NCBI RefSeq assembly: GCF_046119375.1
Contig: NW_027362767.1
Coordinates: 238,080,001 to 238,144,000, forward strand
DNA from: Phyllobates terribilis
Lineage: Eukaryota
Reading direction: 5' to 3'
Length of the DNA stretch: 64,000 nucleotides
Shown: positions 3,478 to 58,200 of the stretch, piece after piece
How the letters are laid out: every line of letters begins with the position of its first letter
Numbering within the stretch: position 1 is the stretch's first letter
Made by a program: the position numbers and the translations under genes
Notes under the pieces: model-generated
The model's input: only the letters and a program-made list of their open reading frames with translations
Database searches by the model: none
Told to the model about the DNA's origin: nothing

Positions 3478-5115
<1,638 letters not shown>

Positions 5116-6030
5116 TACATATTGCACTTATACGAACATATGTTCTGGCTCATTTCTTTGGTTTTGCTGTATTTTTTTTGTACTTTGTACATACAGGGGA
5201 GCTTTTTTTTTTTGTTGACTATTTAGCATCCAAAGGGCAGGTGCAAAACAGTCAGGTCTGGGTCCTGCTCTGCCCCCATCTATTTTGAGGTCTGCTGACA
5301 CATAGGTGAACTACAAGAGTTAGGGTCCATCCTGATTGAGTATACCTTGTTGCGGTGGGATGGCCTTAAAGCTTTTTTGATAAAACATATATTACTATTA
5401 TTTATGTATTAACTTACTGCAGGGAATTTGCTAATTTTGTTTTTTTCTATCCTTGGCTTTACCTATAATAAATAGTTACTTTCTGAATTAAAATAACAAT
5501 ATAGGAGCATCATTTTTTTAACAATGCATTGCTCCTCTTTGATACCTCCTGAAAATGTATGAATAAATTGGCAGCCGAATATGATGTGTCCCTTCAAACA
5601 CTGACACTCTCAACCCATTGATTGTAGCAACACAAACCATTGACAAGAGTATAGTAATATTTTAATTTATTCAGCACATTTATTTCCAGGAGGAATAACA
5701 GAGGAGTAGAAAAACAGTAAGTTTTAAGAAAAAATACTCCAGAATTGATATCTCATGGGGAATACAAATGTTTACTATAATAGAAACTTCAGAAGAGTTG
5801 ACAGATCTTCTTTAAAAAAAAATACTAGATGAATTATAAAGGCATTGTGAATGTGACTATAATAAGGTTATTACTGGGCACTGCTGCGCTTGCCAAATTT
5901 TCATGGGCACTGAGATGGCAGATGTGTATAAACAGGGTTGCTTCTGGCACCTTCACAGGGACATAAAACGGTAAAAGTACCAATGTATGTTCACTATACA
6001 GGTACTTTGCCATACAATGCCAGCTGCACT

Positions 6031-7022
6031 TGTGGCACCCCAGGGGTCTGGTTTCCACAGTAACAGCAGTGTTATGTCTGAGAGCAGGTGGGAGGTCTCT
6101 TGATCAGGAATCCTATGCATGCCACACCTCCTGCCCAGTCCTGGGAGGGGAAGAACTTCCCCTATATAAAACTGGGGCTGAGGCAGGGTTAAAGAAGAAG
6201 AGTAGAGAGAAGAAGAGAAGCAGTGATAGGAAAGAAAGATCAGGAGCTCTGTGGGAGTCGTGCTAAGAGGAGATCAGGGCTGGAAGCTGTAGAGCTCGCC
6301 CTGATTGAAGATTTCTTACCGGACCCGGAGTCCGAGGCTGTGGGGACTAACTCCTACCCAGCAGCAGAAACCGACCGGCAGGGGATTTCAGGTCCTCTGG
6401 CCCAGAAACCCGAAGGCTCGGTCACACGTGTGGGACCAGCACCGCCGTCGTGGAGCGGAAGCTACTAGAAGGCCCCGAGTCACCGGCCATACGGGTGAGC
6501 ACCACACGGTACACTCAGGGACGTGGGCTACCTTTACCCGCCTCTAGCAAGGTAGCCAGAAGAGTACAATTAGTTGGGGAGGCCTACAACTCCGCCTGGC
6601 CAAGGGGGATCCCATCTGCTCAAGGACTGACCAGGCCCCGACCGCTAGCCAGTACTCCGGGAGGGTCTATCTTTGTCACCAGTAAAGACCCTGAACTACA
6701 CCGTATCGTCTCTGAGTGATTCCTGCTACCCCCATCATCCACGTCGGCTGCCCTGAGGCCATACCCCTCCCGTTGGGGGTTATACCATCCACGCTGCACC
6801 ATCCTCCCACCGGCCTCAGCGGTTTGCCCTGCAGCGGCAGCTCCATAGCTGCATTCAACGGGTGGCGTAGTCGTTCTACATCTACTGCTAATATACCGTC
6901 ACTTAGTCTGACTCCCTGGGCACGGACCGGGTCACCGCCACGAGACTACTACCCCTATCAGATCCGGCTCCGGGTAGTCCCTGCGTGCGCAACGCTGCAT
7001 CACATAGGCCCAGGGCGCGTCA
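6031..7022 (+). repeat. 5' LTR
   Basis: TGTGGCACCCC...GGGCGCGTCA. TATATAAA at 6163-6170, AGTAAA near 6682. About 99.4% identical to the 3' LTR (six differences seen). Confidence 0.97.
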
Positions 7023-7027
7023 ACTTT

Positions 7028-7045
7028 TGGCGTAGTCGGCAGGAT
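7028..7045 (+). promoter_or_regulatory. Primer-binding site complementary to tRNA-Ser
   Basis: TGGCGTAGTCGGCAGGAT is the complement of the vertebrate tRNA-Ser 3' end (...ATCCTGCCGACTACG-CCA). It lies 5 nt after the LTR. Confidence 0.9.
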
Positions 7046-7526
7046 CTCGTGCCCGCAACCACCGGGTACTGCGTGCCTGAAAAAGACTGTTCAAACTTAC
7101 CAGTGGTGAAGATTCCCGCCATCCGGCGCCATCTTCTACCTTCTTCCCGCCATCCGCAAAGTTTTCCCGCCATCCGGCGCCATTTTCTGCCTTCTTCCCG
7201 CCATCCGTGGAGTTTTCCCGCCGTTGGACGCCATCTTGAAGACGCCGCACGGGAAGAAGAGGGGCGTGGACTCCGAAAGCGCGCGAGAACTGAAGCCCCG
7301 CCTCACGTCCGGACGTTGCGTAAGGTCCTGGAAGGAGCCCAGCAGACGCCGACGTCACAGAAGCGCGACGGAAGGTCCTCAACCCTGACGATCCACTGCG
7401 GAGCCGCGGCCTACGGAAGAGGATCATCGCAAGGTAGGCCACGGTCCACTAGGGGGGAGGAAGAAGTCGGATACGGAGGAGAGCTTCACTGCCTCAACCC
7501 CCGCCAGCGCCACCGCTGCTGCAGTC

Positions 7527-8444
7527 ATGCCTTTCACCATGCCCTATATCCCGGGAGCGGCCTGGCTACCCCAGTACTCAGGGGAGTCACATACTCTGCA
7601 TGACTTTAGAGAAAAGCTGGATAGCCTCTTCCAGGTGTACCCCCTCACAGAAGAGCAAAAAGTGAGCATCCTGGTGGCCCAATTAACTGGGGCAGCCCAA
7701 AGGGAGGTAAAGTCCTGGCCACCTGGGGGAAGGACTGTCGCAGGGATACTAACCCGGCTGAAGGATACCTTTGATACCCGCACCTCAGCCGAGATCAAGC
7801 TTAGATTCTACGGGTGCAAGCAGCGAGCACAAGAGAGTATAAGGGACTATGCACTAAACCTACAAGAGGCCCTGAGAGCCATTAAGCAGACCGACCCTGA
7901 CGGCGTGGGAGACGAGGACCGGCTGTTGACTGAACAATTTATAGAGGGTTTATATTGCAATGCCCACCGAACCCAGTTGCGGGCAATGGCCTTACAGGAC
8001 CCTCATCTGGGATTTGCACAGTTCAAGGACAGAGCCATCCGGGTGCTCCGAGAACCGGCACCAGGTGGCGTTGTGACCCACAGACGCCCCACTACCACTT
8101 ACCACCAAGAGGCGGCGCCCTTGTCGGCAGGGCCTGTGGGAGCTAATGCGCAGGCTTTGAACAATGACCCGGCTCCCGACCTGCACCATCAGGTCCAAGA
8201 GCTAGCTAAAAGCGTTGCTGCGCTAACCCGAACTGTGCAGTCTTTACAGGTTTCTACTCCAGGGAAGATCCAGCTGGCATCCGGACCGGAGGACATCCCG
8301 TGGCACCGACCAAGGAGGACCCCACCGGCCAGAGGAAGACCCAGCGACCGATACAACGAGGACGGACAACCTATCTGCCGCCGCTGCAATCAACCCGGAC
8401 ATATGGCAAGGTACTGTCCTTTAAACTGGCACAACCTAGGGTAG
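7527..8444 (+). CDS. gag: Gypsy Gag (305 aa)
   Basis: Capsid-like ORF ending with a CX2CX4HX4C zinc knuckle (CRRCNQPGHMARYC). Confidence 0.93.
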   Translation: MPFTMPYIPGAAWLPQYSGESHTLHDFREKLDSLFQVYPLTEEQKVSILVAQLTGAAQREVKSWPPGGRTVAGILTRLKDTFDTRTSAEIKLRFYGCKQRAQESIRDYALNLQEALRAIKQTDPDGVGDEDRLLTEQFIEGLYCNAHRTQLRAMALQDPHLGFAQFKDRAIRVLREPAPGGVVTHRRPTTTYHQEAAPLSAGPVGANAQALNNDPAPDLHHQVQELAKSVAALTRTVQSLQVSTPGKIQLASGPEDIPWHRPRRTPPARGRPSDRYNEDGQPICRRCNQPGHMARYCPLNWHNLG

Positions 8445-11400
8445 AGGGCCAACCCCTAGGAAAAAGATCATCAGGCCCATCAAACTGGCGTGACAAATAT
8501 GTGGGAGGACGTCCAGTCTTGCCTGTGGTACTGGATGGCATTCCTATGAGTGCCCTACTGGACACTGGGTCACAGGTCACCACCATCCCGTACGTGCTCT
8601 TCAAGCAGTACTGGAATGACTCGGATATAACCCGCTACCCTGACGACGACTTGAGTATCATCGCCAGCAATGGTCAGCCCGTGCCACAGATCGGATTTAA
8701 AGAGGTGACCATTAAAATCGGTAGAGTCGAGCTGGCAGCCCAGGGACTGATCATTGTGGACATTGATAAGCGCGAGAGTCACCCTAAGATAACTCTAGGA
8801 ACTAATGTAATTGAAAATTGTCTTGCAGAGGTGATTTTTATTTTACAGCAGGTTGCCAAGAACGCCAGCTCCGGCCAGCAGCGAGTGCTCCAAAAAGAGA
8901 TCCGGGCACTGATGCGACGGCAACAGGTGGAACTCTCCGGCGGTGAGATTGGTAGCGTGAGAATGTGTGACCCTTTCCCTATTGCCATGCCCCCAAAAAG
9001 TGAAATGATGATTTGGTGCCGGGCGGCTATTGGTCTGAGAGGTAGAGATTACCAGGCAATGGTAGAACCAGTTTACTCAGACAGTAGGCCCACCATTTTG
9101 ACAGCACGGGGGGTGGTCAATGTACGCCATGGGAGGGTGCCCGTTCGCATAATAAATATCGGGAAGAGGGAAGTGTACCTGCCCCGGTATGCCACGCTAG
9201 CCAAATTGTATACCATCAATCAGAATTCTATACAGTCCGTAGAACCCTTGCCTCCATCTTCTCCGGAGGAAGGTAACGGCTCTAAACAACAAATGGAGGA
9301 TTGGTGTCAGCAACTACATTTGGGTACTGACTCCACTCCCTCCCACCAGAAACAGGGAGTCTACCGGGTGGTTCAAGAGTACGAGAGAGTGTTTAGTAAA
9401 CACCCGTTAGACTTCGGGCGAGTCAAGGAGGTAGAACATCACATCCCCACGGGAGACCATCCTCCCATAAAAGAGAGGTATCGACCCGTACCCCCTGCAC
9501 ACTACCAACACGCCAAGGGGATGCTTAGAGACATGAAGGAGGCTGGGGTAATCAGGGAAAGCTGTAGCCCCTGGGCAGCTCCACTAGTCTTGGTCAAAAA
9601 GAAAGACAACACCATGAGAATGTGTGTAGATTACCGGAAAATAAACCGTATCACACACAAAGATGCGTACCCCTTACCAAGAATAGAGGAGTCTTTGGCT
9701 GCTTTAAAATCTGCTAACTTCTTCTCCACCTTGGATCTCACTAGCGGGTACTGGCAGGTTCCTGTAGCAGAGGCGGATCGGGAAAAGACCGCATTCACCA
9801 CCCCGATGGGACTTAGTGAGTTTACCTGCATGCCGTTTGGACTCTGCAATGCACCAGGAACCTTCCAGCGATTGATGGAGTGCTGTCTGGGACACCGGAA
9901 CTTTGAGACGGTCCTGTTATACCTGGACGATGTCATCGTCTACTCCAAAACCTACGAGGACCACCTGAAGCACCTGGCGGAAGTGTTTGAAGCTCTGGCA
10001 AGTTACGGCCTAAAGGTGAAACCCTCCAAGTGTCACCTCCTGAAGCCAAAGGTGCAGTACCTGGGACACGTGGTGAGTGCTGACGGAGTGGCTCCCGACC
10101 CTGATAAGATCACCGCAATTAAGGAATGGCCAAGCCCCTCCAGTGTAAAGGAAGTGAGGCAGTTCCTCGGGTTGGTAGGCTACTACCGAAGGTTCATACC
10201 CGGTTTCACCAAAAAGGCAGCTCCTATGCAGGACCTCCTGATAGGCCAGTCCAGGAAGGCCAAGAACCAGAAGCCGCCCTTCAGATGGGAGAAGTTGGAA
10301 GAAGAGTCCTTCCGCCAGCTGAAGATGGCCCTCACGGGGGATGAAATCCTGGCGTACCCTGATTATAGCCAACCCTTTATCCTCTACACCGACGCCAGTA
10401 ACATCGGGCTAGGAGCCGTACTATCCCAGATCCAGCAGGGGAAAGAACGGGTAATTGCTTACGCCAGCCGAAAACTGCGACCCACCGAAAGAAATCCTGA
10501 GAATTACAGCTCATTTAAGCTAGAGTTCCTGGCAGTGGTGTGGGCAGTCACCGAACGCTTTAAGCACTACCTCGCTTCTTCCCGGTTCACCGTGTACACG
10601 GATAACAACCCGTTGACACACCTGGACACTGCAAGACTCGGTGCCCTAGAGCAGAGATGGATGGCCCGCTTGTCCAACTATGAGTTTACAATCAAATACC
10701 GGGCAGGACGCTCCAATACCAACGCGGACGCCCTGTCCAGGATGCCAAACCTACCGGACGAGGGTGAGGATTCAGAAGATTTGGAAGAGGTCGAACTCCC
10801 TGCGTTCCACCGTCATGGGACTATCCAGTATTCCCACCGTGTAAGGGGTAAGCAAGCCGCTACGTTCAACCCCTTACCTCACTACAACTGGGCGGAAACG
10901 CAAGACAGTGACCCTGCCGTCCGGCTGGTGAAGGAGATGCTGACTCAGCCAGAAGCTCGCCTTGACCCAGACGCTCCGGAGGAGGCCAAGCAACTGTGGG
11001 TAGAGAAGAGTCGACTGTTCCTTTACAAGGGGAAGTTGTGCCGCAGAATGGTTAACTCCCGGACGCATGAACTGATCTGGCAAGTAGTGGTGCCAAGAAG
11101 GGACGCAGCTATGGTGATGGAGGCATACCACGACGGGGCTGGGCACTTCGGATGGAAGAAGCTGGAGTTCCTGCTGCGCGGGCGGTTCCATTGGGTAGGC
11201 ATGAGAGGAACCATCGAGAGGTGGTGCAGAGACTGTGGCCCATGCAACCTAAGAAGGAAGGACCGTGCCAGCCAGAAGACCCCCCTTCAGTCCATCGTCA
11301 CCCGGCAGCCGTTGGAACTGGTAGCCTTGGATCATGTAAAACTGACCCCAAGCAGAAGTGGCTACGTCTACGCATTAACCATCGTGGATCACTACTCCCG

Positions 11401-12556
11401 GTTCTTGGTTGTCGTCCCCGTCAAGGACTTAACGGCTCAAACAGCAGCTAGAGCCTTCCAGCAGCACTTCTGCCGTCCACATGGCTACCCAGAGCAGGTG
11501 CTGACGGACCAGGGACCTGCCTTTGAAGCGGAGGTCTTCCAAGAGTTCTGTACTCTGTATGGCTGCTGGAAGATCAGGACGACACCCTATCATCCGCAAA
11601 CTAATGGACTTTGTGAGAAAATGAACCAGGTGGTGATAGATCTTCTAAAAACATTGCCCCTGGAAGAACGCAGTCTGTGGCCTGAGAAGCTGCCCGACCT
11701 GGTGGACCTATACAACTACATCCCTGTAGGTTCCACCAACTGTACCCCGGCTTACCTAATGAGGGCAAGACCCGGTAAGCTACCTGTTGACCTGGAGATG
11801 GGAGTCCTGACACCCGAGGACACTTCACCGGAAGCAGACTGGGACACAGAGAGGCAGCAGCAGTACCGGAAAGTACAGGAGAGCGTGGAGCGAAGTCTCT
11901 GTCTAGCTAGGGAAAGACAAGAGAAAACTTACAACCAGTATGCTCCCGCTGTTCCCTTGGTACCCGGAGAGCAGGTCTTGAAGAGGAAAAGACGGCTCCA
12001 CAAGTTGGACGACCAGTGGGAGAAGGACCCGTACATCGTACTGCCCTCAAGCCACGACAACCCGAAGGTCTGTACCATCAGTAAAGACGGAGGGGAAACC
12101 ACAACCATTGTATCCCGGGATCACCTGAAGAAGTGTCCCGAACAGCTACGGAATCCTGAAGAGGAACAAGAAGACCCTCGACCCGTAGAGGAAAGGGAAG
12201 ATGTGGTTAGTACTGTGCTCGGAGACTTCCCTCGGTCCTGGACTCAAGTCAATGGTGCAGTTGTGGTACCCGTCCTCACGTTCCTCCAACCAGCATCCCA
12301 AGTACTCACGGAGCAACCAGTAGAGCTGGAAGAACAGCCGGTCCAGGAGGCAGAAGACTCCACACAAGCAGATCAGGAGGATCAACCCTCTGCTTATAGT
12401 GAGCCTGCCATACCCCTAGTGAGCCAAAGAGCCTGTAGACAGCTGCCCAGTTCACCCTTGACAGCTCCTACACCCTGTAGTTCAGGGCCAGACAGTCAGC
12501 TCCGTAGGTCCACTAGGGCCACTAAAGGCCAGCTACCCGCACGTTGGAGAATTTGA
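8300..12556 (+). CDS. pol: Gypsy Pol polyprotein (protease, dUTPase-like insert, RT, RNase H, integrase), probably entered by -1 frameshift at 8420-8426
   Basis: Uninterrupted 1418-codon frame. LLDTGS at 8561, YLDD at 9920, YTDAS at 10391, HHCC zinc finger at about 11130-11250, and the D-D-E core of integrase. No chromodomain is evident. Confidence 0.97.
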   Translation: MAPTKEDPTGQRKTQRPIQRGRTTYLPPLQSTRTYGKVLSFKLAQPRVEGQPLGKRSSGPSNWRDKYVGGRPVLPVVLDGIPMSALLDTGSQVTTIPYVLFKQYWNDSDITRYPDDDLSIIASNGQPVPQIGFKEVTIKIGRVELAAQGLIIVDIDKRESHPKITLGTNVIENCLAEVIFILQQVAKNASSGQQRVLQKEIRALMRRQQVELSGGEIGSVRMCDPFPIAMPPKSEMMIWCRAAIGLRGRDYQAMVEPVYSDSRPTILTARGVVNVRHGRVPVRIINIGKREVYLPRYATLAKLYTINQNSIQSVEPLPPSSPEEGNGSKQQMEDWCQQLHLGTDSTPSHQKQGVYRVVQEYERVFSKHPLDFGRVKEVEHHIPTGDHPPIKERYRPVPPAHYQHAKGMLRDMKEAGVIRESCSPWAAPLVLVKKKDNTMRMCVDYRKINRITHKDAYPLPRIEESLAALKSANFFSTLDLTSGYWQVPVAEADREKTAFTTPMGLSEFTCMPFGLCNAPGTFQRLMECCLGHRNFETVLLYLDDVIVYSKTYEDHLKHLAEVFEALASYGLKVKPSKCHLLKPKVQYLGHVVSADGVAPDPDKITAIKEWPSPSSVKEVRQFLGLVGYYRRFIPGFTKKAAPMQDLLIGQSRKAKNQKPPFRWEKLEEESFRQLKMALTGDEILAYPDYSQPFILYTDASNIGLGAVLSQIQQGKERVIAYASRKLRPTERNPENYSSFKLEFLAVVWAVTERFKHYLASSRFTVYTDNNPLTHLDTARLGALEQRWMARLSNYEFTIKYRAGRSNTNADALSRMPNLPDEGEDSEDLEEVELPAFHRHGTIQYSHRVRGKQAATFNPLPHYNWAETQDSDPAVRLVKEMLTQPEARLDPDAPEEAKQLWVEKSRLFLYKGKLCRRMVNSRTHELIWQVVVPRRDAAMVMEAYHDGAGHFGWKKLEFLLRGRFHWVGMRGTIERWCRDCGPCNLRRKDRASQKTPLQSIVTRQPLELVALDHVKLTPSRSGYVYALTIVDHYSRFLVVVPVKDLTAQTAARAFQQHFCRPHGYPEQVLTDQGPAFEAEVFQEFCTLYGCWKIRTTPYHPQTNGLCEKMNQVVIDLLKTLPLEERSLWPEKLPDLVDLYNYIPVGSTNCTPAYLMRARPGKLPVDLEMGVLTPEDTSPEADWDTERQQQYRKVQESVERSLCLARERQEKTYNQYAPAVPLVPGEQVLKRKRRLHKLDDQWEKDPYIVLPSSHDNPKVCTISKDGGETTTIVSRDHLKKCPEQLRNPEEEQEDPRPVEEREDVVSTVLGDFPRSWTQVNGAVVVPVLTFLQPASQVLTEQPVELEEQPVQEAEDSTQADQEDQPSAYSEPAIPLVSQRACRQLPSSPLTAPTPCSSGPDSQLRRSTRATKGQLPARWRI
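8420..8478 (+). promoter_or_regulatory. -1 programmed ribosomal frameshift signal (slippery heptamer plus H-type pseudoknot)
   Basis: T TTA AAC in gag phase. Stem 1 CCTAGGG(8435-8441)/CCCTAGG(8454-8460). Stem 2 GGGCC(8446-8450)/GGCCC(8474-8478). Confidence 0.8.
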
Positions 12557-12909: not shown

Positions 12910-12918
12910 AGGGGGGAA
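12910..12918 (+). promoter_or_regulatory. Polypurine tract
   Basis: AGGGGGGAA immediately before the 3' LTR. Confidence 0.9.
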
Positions 12919-13910
12919 TGTGGCACCCCAGGGGTCTGGTTTCCACAGTAACAGCAGTGTTATGTCTGAGAGCAGGTGGGAGGTCTCTTGGTCAGGAATC
13001 CTATGCATGCCACACCTCCTGCCCGGTCCTGGGAGGGGAAGGACTTCCCCTATATAAACCTGGGGCTGAGGCAGGGTTAAAGAAGAAGAGTAGAGAGAAG
13101 AAGAGAAGCAGTGATAGGAAAGAAAGATCAGGAGCTCTGTGGGAGTCGTGCTAAGAGGAGATCAGGGCTGGAAGCTGTAGAGCTCGCCCTGATTGAAGAT
13201 TTCTTACCGGACCCGGAGTCCGAGGCTGTGGGGACTAACTCCTACCCAGCAGCAGAAACCGACCGGCAGGGGATTTCAGGTCCTCTGGCCCAGAAACCCG
13301 AAGGCTCGGTCACACGTGTGGGACCAGCACCGCCGTCGTGGAGCGGAAGCTACTAGAAGGCCCCGAGTCACCGGCCATACGGGTGAGCACCACACGGTAC
13401 ACTCAGGGACGTGGGCTACCTTTACCCGCCTCTAGCAAGGTAGCCAGAAGAGTACAATTAGTTGGGGAGGCCTACAACTCCGCCTGGCCAAGGGGGATCC
13501 CATCTGCTCAAGGACTGACCAGGCCCCGACCGCTAGCCAGTACTCCGGGAGGGTCTATCTTTGTCACCAGTAAAGACCCTGAACTACACCGTATCGTCTC
13601 TGAGTGATTCCTGCTACCCCCATCATCCACGTCGGCTGCCCTGAGGCCATACCCCTCCCGTTGGTGGTTATACCATCCACGCTGCACCATCCTCCCACCG
13701 GCCTCAGCGGTTTGCCCTGCAGCGGCAGCTCCATAGCTGCATTCAACGGGTGGCGTAGTCGTTCTACATCTACTGCTAATATACCGCCACTTAGTCTGAC
13801 TCCCTGGGCACGGACCGGGTCACCGCCACGAGACTACTACCCCTATCAGATCCGGCTCCGGGTAGTCCCTGCGTGCGCAACGCTGCATCACATAGGCCCA
13901 GGGCGCGTCA
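12919..13910 (+). repeat. 3' LTR
   Basis: Direct repeat of 6031-7022, followed by TSD CACT. Confidence 0.97.
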
Positions 13911-14429
13911 CACTTGTTTGCAGCTGGCATTGTATGGGCACTGATTGGATAGTAGCTACTTTCTAGGTACTTTGAAGTCTTGTCTCAATTGACGGTGAGA
14001 GATGATGGCGTAATTGTGTGCACCCATAGAATATGACGATGTATTCATTATTTCACCATAGTGTGGGAACAATCTTTAAAGTTCAGTTCAATAAGAACAG
14101 TATGAGGCCCGGATTCTCGTAAGATAAACTGTAACCAACTTGTGACCTGGCCTTACACAATAAAAAAAAGTGAATTCTGTTTGTTGATTTTTTGTGTCAA
14201 TGAAGAATTCTGCCTTTCATCACTATAGAGAAGATAAGTGCTATCACTGCGATCTCCACCAGACAAGGCAAGCAGATGGGAATTGACATTTCAAACACTT
14301 CTGTCTTTCCTCACTATAGAAAAAGTCTACAGAACAATCCGATTTGTGAGCCTGGACTTCTGATATACATGGGAGGCCTGCCAGACCCATTTAGGAATTT
14401 GCCCACATCATCTTCTACCTCCCATTTAA

Positions 14430-17222: not shown

Positions 17223-17803
17223 TTTTTAAGAATGTGTTCAAATATGTACGTATCTGTGTATGTGCTTGTCTGCATATGTATGTGTGCATATTTGTTTACC
17301 ATCTGCATGTCTGCGTACCGTGTGCATGCATGTCTGCTTGCTGTGTGCATGTACGTGCATGTCTGCATATGTGAAGGATGAGGGGGCATCCTTTGCCCTG
17401 TGTTGTATACCTACATTTCCCCGCTGTATCTGTGCATCATGAATGCTGTATGTATTAAAGGGGCCACTGAGACTCTTTCGCCCGGGGCCCACGAAAACCT
17501 GGAGCCGGCCTTGGTTGAAAGCAATGATGGAGGAGGGATAGTCATATGACACTCTCTCTCTCATCATTCCTCCTCTACTTCTGACGCAGTGGGGTGATGA
17601 CGCTCCACGCTCTGTCAGACAGTGGAGCTGACAGCTGCTGAGGTGATGACAGAGACGCGCTGCAGAGACTGAAGCAGCCGGGAACGAGGAGCGGTAAGTA
17701 TGTATTTATTTATTTTTGTAAATCAGTGAGTACTGATAATACTGGAGGACTGGGGCTGCATTTTACCCTATGGTGGGGGCTGTCTTTTACCCTATGGGGG
17801 GCT

Positions 17804-18431
17804 GCATTATACTGCATACAGAACCATGGGGAGTTCATTATACTGTGTGGAGGACCATGGGGAGCGCATTATACTGTGTGAAGGACCATGGGGAGCGCAT
17901 TATACTGTATGGAGGACCATGGGGAGCGCATTATACTGTGTGGAGGACCATGGGGAGTGCATTATACTGTGTGGAGGACCATGGAGTGCATTATACTGTG
18001 TGCAGGACCATGGGGAGTGCATTATACTGTGTGCAGGACCATGGGGAGTGCATTATACTGTGTGGAGGACCATGGGGAGTGCATTATACTGCGTGGAGGA
18101 CCATGGCAAGTGCGTTATACTGCGTGGAGGACCATGGCAAGTGCGTTATACTGCGTGGAGGACCATGGCGAGTGCGTTATACTGCGTGGAGGACCATGGC
18201 GAGTGCGTTATACTGCGTGGAGGACCATGGCGAGTGCGTTATACTGCGTGGAGGACCATGGCGAGTGCATTATACTGCGTGGAGGACCATGGCGAGTGCA
18301 TTATACTGCGTGGAGGACCATGGCGAGTGCATTATACTGCGTGGAGGACCATGGCGAGTCCATTATACTGCGTGGAGGACCATGGCGAGTGCATTATACT
18401 GCGTGGAGGACCATGGCGAGTGCATTATACT
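17804..18431. repeat. 31-bp minisatellite, about 20 copies
   Basis: Unit GGAGGACCATGG(G/C)GAGTGC(A/G)TTATACTG(T/C)GT. Translations cycle every 31 aa. Confidence 0.95.
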
Positions 18432-19357
18432 CAGTGGAGTGTGGAGAGGTGTGGGGGTCATTATACTGTATGTAGGCCCACTATACTGCATGGAAGGCTG
18501 TGTGGGGGTCACAGTTGGGGGATTATACTGTGTTGGGGTCACCATACTTTGCCCTGGGAGTTGAGGTGGGGTACAGTAGGCAGGGCTGTGGAGTCAGTAA
18601 GCCAAACCTCCGACTCCTCAATTTCCATGACACAGACTCCAACTGCGACTCCCTCATACATGGCTCATGTTTAAGTGATACATTTATTGTAGCACAGATT
18701 CATCTCCGCTAAAAATCTAGACCCTTAGATCAGGAATAGGACAGACATTTATAGGACATTTCATAACTTTCCCAAATTCTTATGAAAAAAATATTCCCCC
18801 ACAAACTGCATTGAACGACTGTACCCAATTTATTAATTGCTATGCAAAGGCTGGAAAGTTGTGAGATCTGCTCTTCTGTGCCCCCAACAATTATTTACAT
18901 TTTTCTTTTGTGGGGGGGGCCCAATTAGAACTTCTGCTATGGGGCCCATGATTCCTATGTACGCCCCTGCTTAGAGGGGTATCATGTATCGACATTAGCA
19001 TAAGAAAATTGGGGTAGCTTCCCATAGCAACGAATCAGGTTTCAACGCTCATTTATTAGTGGTCAAAAACTGCTACCAGAAGGGCTGCTGGGGGCAACTG
19101 CACCATTTTGTCCCCCTTTCACTAGTTTTTGCTAAGCTCCCAATAATAAAATACAAAAAAAAAAACAGTAACTGTAGATTTCTTTTAGAGGGTTGCAGAG
19201 AATGTAGTACATAAAATTAATTAACTGTATTTTGAAGCCTCTGCACTGTTTAATAAAGTTTGTTGAAAAGAATCAAAATGCTGCGATCAAATGCTTCCAA
19301 GCAGTGTGTTGTTGATAAAGTTTGTTGAAAAAAAAAAAAGCACGTTGTTTGCAGGAC

Positions 19358-23500: not shown

Positions 23501-26500
23501 ATGAAAATCAGGTCCTGGAGGGATTGTCCTGTCTAGACTGCATCCCTTTATTTTGTTGCTGTCTCCAAATCAAAATTGAACATGTGTGGAAACCTTTCCA
23601 CCCTCCGGATCATCCGATATTGCCTGGAAAGCTACACAATTATCTATTACATGGCACCCACATAAATGCATTGGAGGCGGTGAATTACATGATTGGGCCA
23701 AGTTTTACCTGACTGAGTAGGAAATCCCTGGTTGATTTGATCTTTGAAAGCTTTCATATTAGATTCCTGAAATACTCTCATCTTGGGCTTTATTCACATC
23801 TGCTTTGTGACTTTCATTTACTGCTGCCCACACCACTACCTACATACAAAAATCTGCACCAGCTACTGGCTCGTTCAGACCAACGTAATGTACGCACACC
23901 GAGGGCACACACACCCATTATAGCCGATGGATTAGGAATAGGGCGCATAGTCGGGACCACCTAGTGTAGGTGCTATAGTGTACATAGGCTGCAGTGCTCG
24001 TCTTGATTTTGGTGTTCACATATCTGTTGTATGACTTATAACCGGGTCCATTATTATGTCAGAAAACAAAACGCAGCTCTACTTTCCCATCAACCATTAC
24101 ACATTCTGCCATACAGGCCACCAGTTCAGTATCCAATGCAGATGTGAACACGGCCTTATGCTTTGTGCTGTTGACATGCCAGGTGTCATATAAGTGCTCA
24201 TTTTTATTTATTCCCCCTCCCTTCTTTCTATGTTAAGGCTCGAGCAGACCCCACTGAATCAAGAAAAATTGCTGCTATTAAGTGAGTTGACTTTAGATAT
24301 ATTTTGCAGCTATTTCTCTTTCCTTGGTGCCCATACTATGTGATAGACATATGAGTGCTCCCCTCTCATGGCTGGTCACCTTTACATACAGTGGGTACGG
24401 AAAGTATTCAGACCACTTTACATTTTTCACTCTTTATTTCATTGCAGCCAATTGGTAAATTCTAAAAAGTTTTTTTTTTCTCAGTAAAGTACACTCTGCA
24501 CCCCATCTTGATTGAAAAAAACAGAAATGTAGATATTTTTTGCAAATTTATTAAAAAAGAAAAACTGAAATATCACATGGTCATAAGTATTCAGACCCTT
24601 TGCTCAGTATTGAGTAGACCCCTTTTGGGCTAGTACAGCCATGAGTCTTCTTGGGAATGATGCAACAAGTTTTTCACAGCTGGATTTGGGGATCCTCTGC
24701 CATTCTTCCTTGCAGATCCTCTGCAGTTCCGTCAGGTTGGATGGTGAACGTTGGTGGACAGCCATTTTCAGGTCTCTCCAGAGATGCTCAATTGGGTTTA
24801 GGTCAGGGCTCTGGCTGGGCCAGTCAAGAATGGTCACAGAGTTGTTCTGAAGCCACTCCTTTGTTATTTTAGCTGTGTGCTTAGGGTCATTGTCTTGTTG
24901 GAAGGTCAACCTTCAGCCAAGTCTGAGGTCCAGAGCACTCTGGAAAAGGGTTTCATCCAGGATATCTTTGTACTGGGCCGCATTCATGTTTCCTTCAATT
25001 GCAGCCAGTCGTCCTGTCTTTGCAGCTGAAAAACACCCCCATAGCATGATGCTGCCACCACCATGTTTCACTGTTGGGATTGTATTGGGCAGGTGATGAG
25101 CAGTGCCTGGTGTTCTCCACTCATACCGCTTAGAATTATCAACTAAAAGTTCTATCTTCGTCTCATCAGACCAGATAATCTTATTTCTCATAGTCTGGGA
25201 GTCCTTCATGTGTTTTTGAGCAAACTCTATGTGGGCTTTCATATGTCTTGCACTGAGGAGTGGCTTCCGTCGGGCCACTCTGCCATAAAGGCCCGACTGG
25301 TGGAGGGCTGCAGTGATAGTTGACTTTATGAAACTTTCTCCCATCTCCCTACTGCATCTCTGGAGCTCATCCACAGTGATCTTGGGGTTCTTCTTTACCT
25401 CTCTCACCAAGGCTCTTCTCCCACGATTGCTCAGTTTGGCTGGACAGCCAGGTCTAGGAAGACTTCTGGTGGTCCCAAACTTCTTCCATTTAAGGATTAT
25501 GGAGGCCACTGTGCTCTTAGGAACCTTGAGTAATGCAGAAATTCTTTTGTAACCTTGGCCAGATCTGTGCCTTGCCACAATTCTGTCTCTGAGCTCCTTG
25601 GGCAGTTCCTTTGAGCTCATGATTTTCATTTGGTCTGACATGCACTGTGAGCTGTGAGGTCTTATAGAGACAGGTGTGTGCCTTTCCAAATCAAGTCCTA
25701 TTAGTTTAATTAAACACAGCTGGACTCCAATGAAGGAGTAGAACCATCTCAAGGAAATGGACAGCATGTGACTTAAATATGAGTGTCTGAGCAAAGGGTC
25801 TGAATATTTATGACCATGTGATATTTTAGTTTTTCTTTTTTAATAAATTTGCAAAAAATGTCTACATTTCTGTTTTGTTTTTTTTTGTTTTTTTCAGTCA
25901 AGATGTGGTGCAGAGTGTACTTTAATGAGAAAAAAAATGAACTTTTTAGAATTTACCAAATGTCTGCAATGAAACAGTGAAAAATTTAAAGGAGTCTGAA
26001 TACTTTCCGTACCCACTGTAGATGCTTGAGGGACGGCCTTCATCCCCGTATAGAAGTCATTGCTTGTCATTTCTGTTAATGTTTGACTGATTCTGCTAAC
26101 ATCATCTTTTTTAATGTTTGATTAGTTGATCTTACCTAATTTAGGGTATTTAAAAAATGTTGTTTTCTAAACTTAGACAGCCCCTTTAATATTTTTTTTT
26201 TCATATTCTTACCTTTTCATTCAACCAACCCTCCCTCGCTTGGCAGAAGGGGAGGATTCTCTTAGTCTGGGACTATCCTCTTTTTTACTGTATGCTGAAT
26301 ACTAAAAACAGAAATCTAGTATAAAGGGCAGGAAAAGTGTTAATGTAATATCATAACCATCAGTCTATATATAAGGAAAGTACCTGTTTTAGGCGTTCTC
26401 TTTTCTCCCCTCCTAGTTTTTGGTTTGACTTGATGTAACCATGCTTGGAATGTACATTCTGCTATTTACCATCTTATAACAACCTAGTCATGTATATTTC

Positions 26501-40334: not shown

Positions 40335-41050
40335 TTTAGTATTTACAATTGTGGCTAAAAGATTTAAGACTATCACATAGCCAAATCCGGATGGACCCCA
40401 ATCAATGGTGCCCTGATTCTTCTGTTAGCATCAGTTATGCAACTGATCCATTTTACACATTAATTCCCTTCGCCTGTTCCTAACTCATTACAGCGCAGAA
40501 TTCCTGAACCCAATCTAATAAGCTTTTTGGGAAACTTTATCAGTTACTGAAGGAGTTATCAGTTTAAGACCCGGCAAAAATTGGGCAAAATATATGAATC
40601 TAGTGCCTGTGGCATGATAAATTTCACACACTTCTCTTTTTAATGTCATCTAAATCATTTATGTAGGCTCAAAAAGTGTATAAAATCCATGATAAAATTT
40701 GCACACACATGATTTTGGTTATCTGGATGTTTTAGCCTAACACATAATTTATGACTATTTGAAATGTTTCCAAATTTTTGCAGATATTCCTATCGCATAA
40801 ACTGATTGCACATCACTAGGATATGCCATCACTTTATGATTTTGGGGAGGGTCCGATCTGTCGGACAACCGCTGATCCTCAGAATGAAAGGGCTGCAGTA
40901 CTGATTCATTGCTGTCACTGTTTTTCAATGCATCAGATGAAGTGTTAAATACAATTGTAATGTTTTCAGTATTTTATGCTGTTATTATTGGCAAATTATA
41001 TTCCAATATTTCATTTTTTGAATTTTTTTTTTATAGTGGACTACAAAATA

Positions 41051-42556
41051 ATGGAGGGGCTTACATCCTGCCTGAGTGACATGCTGGACAGCGTGAAGGT
41101 AGCACAAGCCAAACTGGACAACAGCCCATTTTCCATGGGAGAATTCTTGAAAAAAGTGGGCATCTCAAGTAATCAGCCAACCATAGTGATGGGTCGCAAG
41201 CAATACAAGTGCGACTTGTGTCAGCGTTGCTTTTCAGACGCTTCCAACCTGAGGCGCCACAAGAACATCCACACAGGCCTGAGGCCATATGTGTGTGATA
41301 TATGTGGCAGCAGCTTTCGTCAAAAGTCCCAGCTGGACCGCCACCATTTGGTGCACACAGGCGAGCGACCTTATCGTTGTCCCTTTTGTACGAAGGGATT
41401 TAGAGACTCTACCGAGCTGAGGATTCACTTTCGGGTGCACACAGGCGAGAGGCCTTACAGTTGTCCTATCTGCCAAAAGAGCTTTTCCCGTATCTGCTAT
41501 ATGAGGAGACACAAGGAAAAGCATGCAAAGATGTTAGTACAGGAACCCGAAAACTGTAATTTAGTCACACCCGCTAATGAGAATGAGGAGATTCCTCAAG
41601 AATTTCAGTGTTCCTACTGCAGTAGATCATTTAAAACCAAGAAAGATCTTGATGCCCATCGTCCTGTGCATTTAAAGATGGGACCTGCGGGGCAAAAACT
41701 TTACGAATGTGTCGAATGTAAGAAGTGCTTCAACAATTCCTCTAATCTAAGAAAGCATGTGGTCATACATACAGGGAAGAAACCTTTCACCTGTAACATC
41801 TGCAATCAATCTTTCCGGCAGGCCACACACCTTCAGCGCCACTACTTGGTCCATACGGGTGAGAGACCATTCAAATGTTCTATATGCCAGAAAGGTTTTC
41901 GAGATACCAGTGATTTGTTAAAGCATCAACGTGTTCATACTGCTGAAAAGCCTTATCAGCGCCCCATCTGGCATAACGCTAGAATACAAAGACAAAGGCA
42001 TTTGGGTGAAGGGTTCAGGCCTGAGGTCAACCCTTTGTCTACACCTCAGTCCATGTCTACTATGAATGAAAACTCTTATGGTGTACGGAAGGAAGAAGAG
42101 AGCCCAAGTGCCAAAAAACATTGGAAAGATGATGACCCTGTACAGGGCAGGCACATTAAAGACAATTTAAAATGCAGTCTATGCGCCAAGTATTTTACCC
42201 GGATTTCAAGCCTCCATCGCCACTACTTGATGCATACAGGTTATCGCCCTTTCAGTTGTCCTATTTGTAGCAGGTCTTTTCAACAGCTCACACACCTCCA
42301 CCGACACAAGCAGATCCACACCAGAGACCAACGATACCACTGCACTACCTGCCGGAAAGCTTTTCGAGAATCCAGTGATCTCTTACATCACCAGCAGGTC
42401 CATACAAAGGATCGATCGGACAGTTGTCATCTGACTTATTCTCAGATGCCTTACCTAAAGTCTCATCACATAAGTCACGGACGGGAGGCCTGCGAGGAAA
42501 GTGAGACTTTGGTAGATTTTGACGATGGCAACTCAATAGAAGTTGTGTTGGTCTAA
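41051..42556 (+). CDS. C2H2 zinc-finger protein (501 aa, 11 intact plus 2 degenerate fingers), single coding exon
   Basis: Polypyrimidine-TAG acceptor at 41035-41036 and ATG at 41051 (the ORF track's upstream extension is intronic). CX2C...HX3H fingers with TGE(R/K)P linkers. No KRAB, SCAN or BTB domain in this exon. Confidence 0.92.
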   Translation: MEGLTSCLSDMLDSVKVAQAKLDNSPFSMGEFLKKVGISSNQPTIVMGRKQYKCDLCQRCFSDASNLRRHKNIHTGLRPYVCDICGSSFRQKSQLDRHHLVHTGERPYRCPFCTKGFRDSTELRIHFRVHTGERPYSCPICQKSFSRICYMRRHKEKHAKMLVQEPENCNLVTPANENEEIPQEFQCSYCSRSFKTKKDLDAHRPVHLKMGPAGQKLYECVECKKCFNNSSNLRKHVVIHTGKKPFTCNICNQSFRQATHLQRHYLVHTGERPFKCSICQKGFRDTSDLLKHQRVHTAEKPYQRPIWHNARIQRQRHLGEGFRPEVNPLSTPQSMSTMNENSYGVRKEEESPSAKKHWKDDDPVQGRHIKDNLKCSLCAKYFTRISSLHRHYLMHTGYRPFSCPICSRSFQQLTHLHRHKQIHTRDQRYHCTTCRKAFRESSDLLHHQQVHTKDRSDSCHLTYSQMPYLKSHHISHGREACEESETLVDFDDGNSIEVVLV

Positions 42557-51307: not shown

Positions 51308-52931
51308 TACAGACCAAAAGTTTGGACACACCTTCTCATTTAAAGATTTTTCTGTATTTTCTTGACTATGAAAATTGTACATTTACACTGAAAGCATCAC
51401 AACTATGAATTAACACATGTGGAATTATATACTTAACAAAAAAGTGTGAAACAACTGAAAATATGTCTTATATTCTAGGTTCTTCAAAGTAGCTACGTTT
51501 TGCTTTGATGACTGCTTTGCACACTCTTGGCATTCTCTTGATGAGCTTCAAGAGGTAGTCGCCGGAAATGGTTTTCACTTCACAGGTGTGCCCTGTCAGG
51601 TTTAATAAGTGGGATTTCTTGCCTTATAAATGGGGTTGGGACCATCAGTTGTGCTGTGCAGAAGTCTGGTGGATACACAGTTGATAGTCCCACTGAATAG
51701 ACTGCTAGCTGCTTTTTTCTTGCCATAATACAAATTCTAAGTAAAGAAAAATGAGTGGCCACCATTACTTTAAGAAATGAAGGTCAGTCAGTGCGAAAAA
51801 TTGGGAAAACTTTGAAAGTGTCCCCAAGCGCAGTTGCAAAAACCATCAAGCGCTACAAAGAAACTGGCTCACATGAGGACCGCCCCAGGAAAGGAAGACC
51901 AAGAGTCACCTCTGCTTCTGAGGATAAGTTTATCCGAGTCACCAGCCTCAGAAATCGCAGGTTAACAGCAGCTCAGATTAGAGACCAGGTCAATGCCACA
52001 CAGAGTTCTAGCAGCAGACACATCTCTTCAACAACTGTTAAGAGGAGACTTTGTGCAGCAGGCCTTCATGGTAAAATAGCTGCTAGGAAACCACTGCTAA
52101 GGACAGGCAACAAGCAGAAGAGACTTGTTTGGGCTAAAGAACACAAGGAATGGACATTAGACCAGTGGAAATCTGTGCTTTGGTCTGATGAGTCCAAATT
52201 TGAGATCTTTGGTTCCAACCACCGTGTCTTTGTGCGACGCAGAAAAGGTGAACTGATGGACTCCACATGCCTGGTTCCCACCGTGAAGCATGGAGGAGGA
52301 GGTGTGATGGTGTGGGGGTGCTTTGCTGGTGACACTGTTGGGGATTTATTCAAAATTGAAGGCATACTGAGCCAGCATGGCTACCACAGCATCTTGCAGC
52401 GGCATGCTATTCCATCCGGTTTGCGTTTAGTTGGACCATCATTTATTTTTCAACAGGACAATAACCCCAAACACACCTCCAGGCTGTGTAAGGGCTATTT
52501 GACCAAGAAGGAGAGTGATGGGGTGCTACGCCAGATGACCTGGCCTCCACAGGCACCAGACCTGAACCCATTCGAGATGGTTTGGGGTGAGCTGGACCGC
52601 AGAGTGAAGGCAAAAGGGCCAACAAGTGCTAAGCATCTCTGGGAACTCCTTCAAGATTGTTGGAAGACCATTTCCGGTGACTACCTCTTGAAGCTCATCA
52701 AGAGAATGCCAAGAGTGTGCAAAGCAGTCATCAAAGCAAAAGGTGGCTACTTTGAAGAACCTAGAATATAAGACATATTTTCAGTTGTTTCACACTTTTT
52801 TGTTAAGTATATAATTCCATATGTGTTAATTCATAGTTTTGATGCCTTCAGTGTGAATGTACAATTTTCATAGTCAAGAAAATACAGAAAAATCTTTAAA
52901 TGAGAAGGTGTGTCCAAACTTTTGGTCTGCA

Positions 52932-55209: not shown

Positions 55210-58200
55210 CAGTGATGGCAAACCTATTACAGACCGAGTGCCCAAACTGCAACCCAAAACCCACTTATTTCTCGCCAAGAGCCAACACGGCAAATTAACC
55301 TAAATACTGAGGTTTTAGTTTAAAAAAAACAACTCATACAGATGGGGGTGGGGGGCAGAGAGCAGCCACAGAAAGGAGCAGGGGTATGAGACTGCAGAAA
55401 TAAAGAATGTATCCATGTATATATGCTGCCCTCCCCCAATCCATGTATATATGCTGCCCTCCCCCAATCCATGTATATATGCTGCCCTCCCCCAATCCAT
55501 GTATATATGCTGCCCTCCCCCAATCCATGTATATATGCTGCCCTCCCCCAATCCATGTATATATGCTGTCCCCCCCCCATTCCATGTATATATGCTGCCC
55601 TCCCCCAATCCATGTATATATGCTGCCCTCCCCCCAATCCATGTATATATGCTTCCCTCCCCCAATCCATGTATATATGCTGCCCTCCCCAATCCATGTA
55701 TATATGCTGCCCTCCCCCAATCCATGTATATATGCTTCCCTCCCCCAATCCATGTATATATGCTTCCCTCCCCCAATCCATGTATATATGCTGCCCTCCC
55801 CCAATCCATGTATATATGCTGCCCTCCCCCAGTCCATGTATATATGCTGCCCCCAATCCTTGCATATATGCTGCCTCCACCCCCCATCCATGTATATATG
55901 GCTGCCTTCCCCCCATCCATGTATATATGCTGCCTCCACACCCCCCATCCATGTATATATGCTGCCCTCCCCCAATCCATGTATATATGCTGCCCCCAAT
56001 CCTTGCATATATGCTGCCTCCACCCCCCATCCATGTATATATGGCTGCCTTCCCCCCATCCATGTATATATGCTGCCTCCACACCCCCCATCCATGTATA
56101 TATGGCTGCCTTCCCCCCATCCATATATATATGCTGCCTCCACACACCCCCATCAAGGTATATATGCTGCCTCCACACCCCCCATCCATGTATATATGGC
56201 TGCCTTCCCCCCATCCATGTATATATGGCTGCCTTCCCCCCATCCATATATATATGCTGCCTCCACACACCCCCATCAAGGTATACATGCTGCCTCCACA
56301 CACCCCCATCCATGTATATATGCTGCCTCCACACCCCCCATCCATGTATATATGCTGCCTCCACACCCCCCCATCCATGTATATATGCTGCCTCCACCCC
56401 CCCCATCAAGGTATATATGCTGCCTCCACACACCTCCTTCAAGGTATATATGCTGCCTCCACACACCCCCATCAAGGTATATATGCTGCCTCCACACACC
56501 CCCTTCAAGGTATATATGCTGCCTCCACACACCCCCATCAAGGTATATATGCTGCCTCCACACCCCCCATCCATGTATATATGGCTGCCTTTCCCCCATC
56601 CATATATATATGCTGCCTCCACACACCCCCATCAAGGTATACATGCTGCCTCCAAACCCCCCATCCATGTATATATGCTGCCTCCACACCCCCCATCCAT
56701 ATATATATGCTGCCTCCACACACCCCCATCAAGGTATATATGCTGCCTCCACACCCCCCATCCATGTATATATGGCTGCCTTTCCCCCATCCATATATAT
56801 ATGCTGCCTCCACACACCCTCATCAAGGTATACATGCTGCCTCCACACACCCCCATCCATGTATATATGCTGCCTCCACACCCCCCCATCCATGTATATA
56901 TGCTGCCTCCACCCCCCCCATCAAGGTATATATGCTGCCTCCACACACCCCCTTCAAGGTATATATGCTGCCTCCACACACCCCCATCAAGGTATATATG
57001 CTGCCTCCACACACCCCCTTCAAGGTATATATGCTGCCTCCACACACCCCCATCAAGGTATATATGCTGCCTCCACACCCCCCATCCATGTATATATGGC
57101 TGCCTTTCCCCCATCCATATATATATGCTGCCTCCACACACCCCCATCAAGGTATATATGCTGCCTCCACACCCCCCATCCATGTATATATGCTGCCTCC
57201 ACACCCCCCATCCATGTATATATGCTGCCTCCACACCCCCCATCCATGTATATATGCTGCCTCCACACCCCCCATCCATGTATATATGGCTGCCTTTCCC
57301 CCATCCATATATATATGCTGCCTCCACACACCCCCATCAAGGTATACATGCTGCCTCCACACACCCCCATCCATGTATATATGCTGCCTCCACACCCCCC
57401 CATCCATGTATATATGCTGCCTCCACCCCCCCCATCAAGGTATATATGCTGCCTCCACACACCCCCTTCAAGGTATATATGCTGCCTCCACACACCCCCA
57501 TCAAGGTATATATGCTGCCTCCACACACCCCCTTCAAGGTATATATGCTGCCTCCACACACCCCCATCAAGGTATATATGCTGCCTCCACACCCCCCATC
57601 CATGTATATATGGCTGCCTTTCCCCCATCCATATATATATGCTGCCTCCACACACCCCCATCAAGGTATATATGCTGCCTCCACACCCCCCATCCATGTA
57701 TATATGCTGCTTCCACACCCCCCATCCATGTATATATGCTGCCTCCACACACCCCCATCCATGTATATATGCTGCCATCACACACCCCCATCAAGGTATA
57801 TATGCTGCCTCCACACCCCCCATCCATGTATATATGGCTGCCTTTCCCCCATCCATATATATATGCTGCCTCCACACACCCCCATCAAGGTATACATGCT
57901 GCCTCCACACACCCCCATCAAGGTATACATGCTGCCTCCACACCCCCCCATCCATGTATATATGCTGCCTCCACACCCCCCATCCATGTATATATGCTGC
58001 CTCCACCCCCCCCATCAAGGTATATATGCTGCCTCCACATCCCCCATCCATGTATATATGCTGCCACCACACACCCCCATCAAGGTATATATGCTGCCTC
58101 CACACCCCCCATCCATGTATATATGCTGCCTCCACACCCCCCATCCATGTATATATGCTGCCACCACACACCCCCATCAAGGTATATATGCTGCCTCCAC

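What the first reader, a model, noticed from the sequence alone, without database searches (positions are those of the whole stretch)
8420..8478. Textbook -1 frameshift cassette (UUUAAAC plus H-type pseudoknot) joining gag and pol
Seen: pol is in the -1 frame relative to gag. U UUA AAC is in exact gag phase. After an 8-nt spacer come a 7-bp stem 1 (CCUAGGG/CCCUAGG), a 4-nt loop holding the gag UAG, a 5-bp all-GC stem 2 (GGGCC/GGCCC) and a 13-nt A-rich loop 3. Known: UUUAAAC with a downstream pseudoknot is the coronavirus-type -1 PRF architecture. Inference: a compact, functional recoding element in an amphibian retrotransposon.
Basis: partly seen in the sequence, partly recalled or inferred. 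Interest (0 to 1): 0.7.

Follow-up and report, generated by a model that had tools for sequence, protein, structure and literature searches.

The report
Frog retrotransposon's conserved frameshift pseudoknot
A young jumping gene in what is likely a poison frog has, where its capsid gene overlaps its enzyme gene, a slippery seven-letter site followed by a predicted RNA knot whose base pairs are kept with different letters in related jumping genes, so ribosomes likely slip back one letter there to make the enzymes, a well-known viral trick.

Summary
Observation confirmed base for base. The site joins gag and pol of a young, env-less Gypsy (Metaviridae) LTR retrotransposon (LTRs differ at 6 of 992 bases). 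It is not chance or damage. It is the only such pseudoknot in the 5.8-kb element, and 0 of 3000 shuffles give one. All 30 close copies share it. Across 9 families in this genome (gag DNA 45-79% identical to this copy), all 97 pair states shared within the relatives' families are standard pairs; four pairs change on both sides and one family slides stem 2 by one base. Distant relatives use other heptamers and pseudoknots at the same joint. A functional -1 frameshift is very likely but was not measured. Two corrections: the 7+5-bp knot is of the compact SRV-1 type, not the coronavirus type, and the stop in loop 1 is peculiar to this family. The mechanism is long known (28 of 51 animal retroelements have pol in -1; PEG10, PNMA3). 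Eight paper searches listed no description of this cassette. The scan noted a -1 pseudoknot in an unrelated element elsewhere (e1-9854194). New member of a known kind.

The parts
6027..6030 (+). left copy of the 4-bp target-site duplication
   Evidence: same 4 bases at 13911-13914
6031..7022 (+). 5' LTR (TG...CA, 992 nt)
   Evidence: 6 mismatches to the 3' LTR
7028..7045 (+). primer-binding site, TGG-initiated; likely tRNA-Ser (assignment recalled, not tested)
7389..8444 (+). gag ORF (stop to stop; first in-frame ATG 7527): PNMA-like capsid and CCHC zinc knuckle
   Evidence: PF14893 E 1.9e-4, below cut-off; zf-CCHC above cut-off
8420..8426 (+). slippery heptamer U UUA AAC in gag phase, one codon after the last knuckle Cys
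8427..8434 (+). 8-nt spacer; sequence variable, length fixed
8435..8441 (+). stem 1, 5' arm
8442..8445 (+). loop 1, holds the gag stop (8442-8444) in this family only
8446..8450 (+). stem 2, 5' arm
8451..8453 (+). loop 2 (3 nt)
8454..8460 (+). stem 1, 3' arm; holds a second gag-frame stop at 8457-8459
8461..8473 (+). loop 3 (13 nt), purine-rich 5' half conserved
8474..8478 (+). stem 2, 3' arm
8210..12556 (+). pol ORF in the -1 frame (stop to stop), predicted to be entered at 8420-8426: protease, RT, RNase H, integrase
12910..12918 (+). polypurine tract
12919..13910 (+). 3' LTR
13911..13914 (+). right copy of the target-site duplication

Best explanation
This is likely a working programmed -1 ribosomal frameshift signal that joins gag to pol in a young Gypsy LTR retrotransposon: the heptamer, the -1 overlap and the conserved pairing are shown, while pseudoknot folding and ribosome slippage are inferred. 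A ribosome finishing the Gag zinc knuckle would pause with the Leu and Asn tRNAs on U UUA AAC as it meets the compact H-type pseudoknot 8 nt ahead. A minority would slip back one base and read protease-RT-RNase H-integrase as a Gag-Pol fusion. The rest would melt stem 1 and stop at the UAG six codons on. The conserved purines of loop 3 likely brace stem 1 in its minor groove, as in SRV-1. The signal would set the Gag to Gag-Pol ratio.
For: Anatomy exact and unique in the element. Identical in 30 of 30 close copies, whose gag and first 400 pol codons are open in 26 and 24 of 30. The Leu codon of the site is UUA in 70 of 72 relatives against 77 of 517 (15%) Leu codons just upstream. On 57 aligned loci 92.7% of 683 cells pair, 5 of 12 pairs change on both sides, and slid controls reach 20-63%. 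By family (72 of 82 loci, 10 with cassette indels dropped): 109 of 109 shared pair states are standard (97 without the window's own 12), while 35 of 50 rare states break pairing, as post-insertion decay would. On a gag tree the double changes fall on separate branches, and stem 2 shows G-C, G-U and A-U at 8448/8476. One family keeps a 5-bp stem 2 with its 3' arm slid by one base. In contigs of four public runs 8438 and 8457 change together, and no change is listed in the heptamer or stem 2. Distant relatives: 46 of 106 Gag proteins end exactly on LN, GN, EN, GF, DF or NF, about 1 expected; 13 of 14 metagenome elements with pol in -1 have an in-phase heptamer, 8 of 13 with a detectable H-type pseudoknot of unrelated sequence. 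U UUA AAC is among the most shift-prone sites in vertebrate ribosomes (PMC5009743, PMC2995055, passages).
Against: No frameshift was measured; no ribosome profiling or proteomics was available. Stems are mostly invariant G-C and lie in coding frames, so only four covarying pairs, each about one event, carry the structural signal; 100 of 500 shuffles reach the number of doubly changed pairs. One of the four (8437/8458) sits in CpG context in one family and could arise by decay. Stem 2 is only 5 bp, loop 2 is 3 nt, and the pseudoknot energy (about -16.7 against -11.9 kcal/mol for the best nested fold) is a rough hand estimate. Six loci that are not -1 were not explained. The dipeptide set and the detector thresholds were chosen after seeing data.
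Confidence: 0.9

Rival explanations
1. Frameshifting is real but the stimulator is the stem 1 hairpin alone; stem 2 rarely forms.
For: Nested folding finds only stem 1. Three distant elements (L148, L182, L189) show a long hairpin but no pseudoknot by my detector. A paper title listed (PMC3203594) says that stem-loops can substitute for the SRV-1 pseudoknot.
Against: Stem 2 pairs in all 9 families, with G-C, G-U and A-U at one pair and a one-base slide in one family. The 5' change is non-synonymous in both frames (read). A 7-bp hairpin is only about -10.8 kcal/mol.
Confidence: 0.05
2. Pol is made without frameshifting, from a spliced RNA or by initiation at its own AUG (8546), and the conserved RNA element has another job such as packaging.
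For: An AUG lies in the pol frame shortly before the protease DTG motif, and a pol-frame Met upstream of DTG is present in many relatives. Some database gene models join gag to pol directly (P0006).
Against: That Met is missing from part or all of 5 of the 10 clusters scored and starts inside the protease Pfam match. The only GT..AG joint across the site in four runs was one contig of depth 5.4 (about 1700 around it) skipping 438 nt, which stays in the gag frame. Neither route explains the fixed UUA codon or the fixed 8-nt spacer.
Confidence: 0.03
3. The frame offset is a disabling indel in a dead copy and the stems are a by-product of overlapping coding constraint.
For: Many related Gypsy elements have gag and pol in one frame (31 of 46 metagenome loci; P0244). 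Decayed copies do show frame changes (16 of 82).
Against: 30 of 30 close copies and all 9 families share the offset. Both bases of the 8438/8457 pair change Pol residues yet change together.
Confidence: 0.01
4. The pseudoknot drives stop-codon readthrough of the gag UAG, as in murine leukaemia virus.
For: A UAG lies beside a pseudoknot.
Against: The UAG is inside the knot, not upstream of it; a second gag-frame stop follows five codons later; pol is not in the gag frame; the stop position moves between families.
Confidence: 0.005

Closest known systems
-1 gag-pol frameshifts of animal Ty3/Gypsy retrotransposons (Gao et al. 2003, as summarised in PMC5009743; original not held)
   Same: pol in -1 to gag with a classical heptamer; 28 of 51 animal retroelements surveyed
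   Different: That survey was mostly Drosophila. I found no listing of an amphibian or fish Gypsy pseudoknot backed by covariation.
PNMA3 (Ma3) and PNMA5 frameshift signals (PMC5009743, PMC11299033, passages; Wills 2006 not held)
   Same: Gypsy-derived PNMA-type capsid; -1 heptamer plus classical H-type pseudoknot at the end of gag (about 20% for Ma3)
   Different: They use G GGA AAC and have lost pol. The frog Gag has no room for the ~100-aa N-terminal RNA-binding domain, and its Pol gave no dUTPase hit, both marks of the closest PNMA relative (PMC11011659). Stem sequences were not compared.
PEG10 and RTL3 frameshifts
   Same: -1 shift between a Gypsy capsid and protease
   Different: Sushi/SIRH lineage, domesticated, G GGA AAC (PMC11299033, PMC11011659, passages)
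SRV-1 gag-pro pseudoknot (PMC2995055, abstract and passages)
   Same: 12-bp classical H-type knot with a 12-nt A-rich loop across stem 1; works with UUUAAAC in reporters
   Different: Retrovirus; natural site G GGA AAC; here 7+5 bp with a 4-nt loop 1 and a 3-nt junction
Coronavirus (IBV) frameshift element (PMC5009743, passages)
   Same: Heptamer U UUA AAC
   Different: IBV stem 1 cannot be reduced below 11 bp; here it is 7 bp. No Rfam coronavirus model matched.

Membership tests
Canonical eukaryotic -1 PRF signal | X XXY YYZ heptamer in 0-frame phase inside the overlap | tested here: met
   76 of 82 relatives keep N UUA AA(C/U/A), the first base is often G
Canonical eukaryotic -1 PRF signal | spacer of about 5-9 nt (range recalled; 5-8 in PMC11299033) | tested here: met
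   8 nt, same length in all 9 families
Canonical eukaryotic -1 PRF signal | 3' stimulatory structure kept by selection | tested here: met
   covariation and register slide
Canonical eukaryotic -1 PRF signal | long open -1 frame with no complete start of its own | tested here: met
   1378 codons from 8420; first AUG at 8546 is inside the protease match
Canonical eukaryotic -1 PRF signal | measured -1 product | not testable with these tools
   needs a reporter, ribosome profiling or mass spectrometry
H-type pseudoknot | loop of stem 1 pairs with sequence 3' of it | tested here: met
   pairing possible and conserved; folding itself not probed
Coronavirus (IBV-type) frameshift element | stem 1 of at least 11 bp | tested here: not met
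   7 bp; threshold from PMC5009743; no Rfam match
Ty3/Gypsy LTR retrotransposon (Metaviridae) | LTRs, target-site duplication, PBS, PPT | tested here: met
Ty3/Gypsy LTR retrotransposon (Metaviridae) | domain order PR-RT-RH-IN, no env | tested here: met
   362 nt between pol stop and LTR, longest + strand frame 67 aa
Ty3/Gypsy LTR retrotransposon (Metaviridae) | placement in a named clade by an RT tree with reference elements | not tested
   no named references were held; database names say 'Gypsy retrotransposon integrase-like'
Closest metaviral relatives of mammalian PNMA genes (Gypsy-30_Ami type) | N-terminal RNA-binding domain before the capsid; dUTPase | tested here: not met
   capsid match starts at residue 73 of the stop-to-stop ORF; no dUTPase hit; features from PMC11011659
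Closest metaviral relatives of mammalian PNMA genes (Gypsy-30_Ami type) | PNMA-type capsid | tested here: inconclusive
   PF14893 21.3 bits against cut-off 25; listed for 6 of 7 close relatives; no PNMA structure among PDB hits

The most novel reading that the evidence does not exclude
A wide, uncatalogued clade of fish and amphibian Gypsy elements with PNMA-like capsids all join gag to pol through a heptamer plus compact pseudoknot placed just after the zinc knuckle, swapping heptamers (U/G UUA AAC, G GGA AAC, G GAA AAC, G GGU UUU) and stem letters. The mammalian PNMA3/PNMA5 frameshift is a relic of this same joint, and the nine frog families form a natural mutational series for how a frameshift pseudoknot evolves and tunes Gag to Gag-Pol ratios.
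Probability: 0.35. Interest if true: 0.5.

Novelty: new member of a known kind. Interest (0 to 1): 0.3.

Why it matters
The mechanism is textbook, so a specialist would not be surprised. The value is practical. It is a clean, covariation-backed frameshift pseudoknot from a recently multiplying vertebrate retrotransposon, absent from Rfam. It explains why gene models in frogs and fish split or mis-splice these elements. It offers natural variants for studying pseudoknot strength and a comparison point for PNMA3/5, whose frameshift has been called of unclear relevance (PMC11011659).

Tried and rejected
Rfam scan: no match at E<=10. Nested folding z-scores: uninformative for a pseudoknot. PDB search with the Gag profile: three weak hits, no capsid. 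Own-genome searches with P0013 and P0019 returned 13 places already held, which were left out; P0060 returned nothing at 1e-30. Four loci (L050, L054, L058, L066) gave no knuckle tail and were left out. Metagenome scan with the Gag alignment: nothing. IMG/VR: 5 distant loci, of which one had a knuckle and protease, in one frame. Sequencing runs: no RNA holder listed, so nothing on expression; only contigs were laid. Wills 2006 and Gao 2003 were not held, so the PNMA3 stems could not be compared. No supplements were read; Repbase-type annotations or supplements may already mark this frameshift. Rejected: readthrough, a chance indel, the label 'coronavirus-type architecture', and a conserved role for the stop in loop 1.

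Full report
Observation. A 3-nt loop 2 separates the stems. Pol is in the -1 frame and overlaps gag from 8210 to 8444. A strict pseudoknot detector, with thresholds set after seeing the site, fired only here among 5804 positions of the element and in 0 of 3000 shuffles; allowing one G-U per stem added one other site, near 8122. Nested folding shows stem 1 only and no unusual stability. Rfam has nothing.

Context. The site lies in a 7.9-kb LTR retrotransposon: LTRs 6031-7022 and 12919-13910 with 6 mismatches, a 4-bp target-site duplication, a PBS and a PPT. Gag has a weak PNMA-type capsid match and a CCHC knuckle; Pol reads protease, RT, RNase H, integrase; there is no room for env. The genome is 10.6 Gb and the closest named proteins come from poison frogs (89% Gag, 97% RT region), so the host is likely a dendrobatid frog. 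A DNA search scored 40 of 1452 candidates, all near-identical over the junction; the 30 fetched share the cassette letter for letter. These were picked as the best matches, so they show only that the frame offset belongs to the family and is not damage in one copy.

Relatives in the same genome. Searches with divergent Gags gave 82 distinct loci with a readable knuckle (4 without a tail and 13 duplicates left out). They form 11 clusters at 85% identity, merged here to 9 families, 45-79% identical to the window in gag DNA. Pol is in -1 in 65, in another frame in 16, and unscored in 1; 10 of the 16 have an indel inside the cassette and 6 were not explained. The heptamer is U UUA AAC in 35 and G UUA AAC in 26. 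Its Leu codon is UUA in 70 of 72 indel-free loci against 15% of upstream Leu codons, a constraint that Gag protein sequence does not need. Spacer, loops and downstream sequence vary (mean entropy 1.1-1.4 bits; loop 2 0.7), stems and heptamer much less (0.3-0.5).

Covariation. On a 57-row alignment (the loci held at that time) 92.7% of cells pair and no shuffle reached the covariation score, but 100 of 500 reached the count of doubly changed pairs, and related rows inflate these tests. The family view is more telling: all 109 pair states shared within a family are standard pairs (97 without the window), while 35 of 50 rare states break pairing. Four pairs change on both sides: 8437/8458 (U-A or C-G), 8438/8457 (A-U in this family, G-C elsewhere), 8439/8456 (G-C or A-U) and 8448/8476 (G-C, G-U or A-U). 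One family keeps a 5-bp stem 2 with the 3' arm one base further on. On a gag tree of 28 of the loci, cassette excluded, these changes lie on different branches; each is about one event. By the contexts this applies to 8437/8458 only; the other three are not in CpG. In contigs from four public runs (organisms coded A, B, C), 8438 and 8457 differ together at similar depths (692/738, 1105/1164, 859/962, 115/115). The other differences listed within 8420-8478 are in the spacer and loops.

Wider clade. A profile search found 1389 Gag relatives; those looked up by name were from frogs and fish. Of 106 with a knuckle and a tail up to 60 residues, 46 end exactly on LN, GN, EN, GF, DF or NF, the dipeptides that slippery heptamers encode, against about 1 expected; 94 have one in the tail against about 20 (set chosen after inspection). 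Of 85 metagenome and IMG/VR loci, 46 had both knuckle and protease: 31 in one frame, 14 in -1, 1 in +1. Thirteen of the 14 have an in-phase heptamer and 8 of those a detectable H-type pseudoknot of unrelated sequence; the three with the strongest Gag similarity are all -1. The frameshift joint is thus a trait of a broad lineage, though many related Gypsy elements use one ORF.

Mechanism. Shown: heptamer, phase, spacer, open -1 frame, conserved pairing. Inferred: the knot folds (rough estimate -16.7 against -11.9 kcal/mol), pauses the ribosome, and a minority slips to make Gag-Pol while most stop six codons on. Conserved purines at the start of loop 3 would fit minor-groove contacts with stem 1 as in SRV-1, although in SRV-1 most triples lie near the 3' end of that loop (PMC2995055, passages). 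Efficiency is unknown. Splicing, internal initiation, readthrough and damage are each disfavoured.

Comparison. -1 frameshifts between gag and pol are common in animal LTR retrotransposons (28 of 51, PMC5009743, passages citing Gao 2003) and survive in PEG10, RTL3, PNMA3 and PNMA5, all with G GGA AAC (PMC11299033, PMC11011659, bioRxiv 10.1101/2021.04.23.441185; passages, plus the first part of section 8 of PMC11011659). The heptamer matches IBV, but IBV needs an 11-bp stem 1 (PMC5009743); a 12-bp knot with a 13-nt loop is closer to SRV-1. The element is not the nearest relative of mammalian PNMA genes: it lacks room for their N-terminal domain and shows no dUTPase (PMC11011659). PNMA domains in frog Gypsy elements have been noted (PMC4131045, passages), and PNMA genes were linked to zebrafish Gypsy12_DR (PMC3789554, passages). 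PMC5443660 (passages) added only general background. Eight searches (listings seen) showed no paper on this cassette in amphibian or fish Gypsy elements, but subscription papers and Repbase were not searchable.

Verdict. Real, well supported, very likely functional, and ordinary in kind: a new member of a known class. Interest 0.3.

Noticed in passing
window 7460-7470: This copy has a private substitution near the likely gag start, so its first in-frame ATG is at 7527. It may make a shortened Gag.
   Followed up: partly
window 8457-8459: The A-U pair peculiar to this family creates a second gag-frame stop inside stem 1; together with the loop-1 stop it shortens Gag by seven codons relative to sister families.
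   Followed up: yes
L048, L049, L055, L056, L059: Family whose stem 2 3' arm is slid by one base, with a 14-nt loop 3.
   Followed up: yes
P0006, P0202, P0220, P0239: Database gene models that run from gag into protease without the slippery dipeptide or with part of the knuckle missing; probably annotation bridging the frameshift with false introns.
   Followed up: no
P0244, P0074, P0154; 31 of 46 loci: Related elements with gag and pol apparently in one ORF, so the frameshift has been gained or lost within the wider group.
   Followed up: no
L114: Copy in which most of the cassette is deleted just after the heptamer.
   Followed up: no
window 8408-8847: One low-depth contig in run X1 joins these places with GT..AG ends, skipping 438 nt; it stays in the gag frame.
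   Followed up: partly
window 3642-4787 (-), 24913-25839 (-), 51755-52771 (+): Tc1/mariner transposase ORFs or remnants.
   Followed up: no
window 40961-42556 (+): Open frame of 531 codons with a C2H2 zinc-finger array, likely an exon of a host gene.
   Followed up: no
window 17738-18510: Tandem array with a 31-nt period.
   Followed up: no
window 55315-58796: All three + frames open for over 1100 codons, the one scanned without a Pfam hit; probably a tandem repeat.
   Followed up: no
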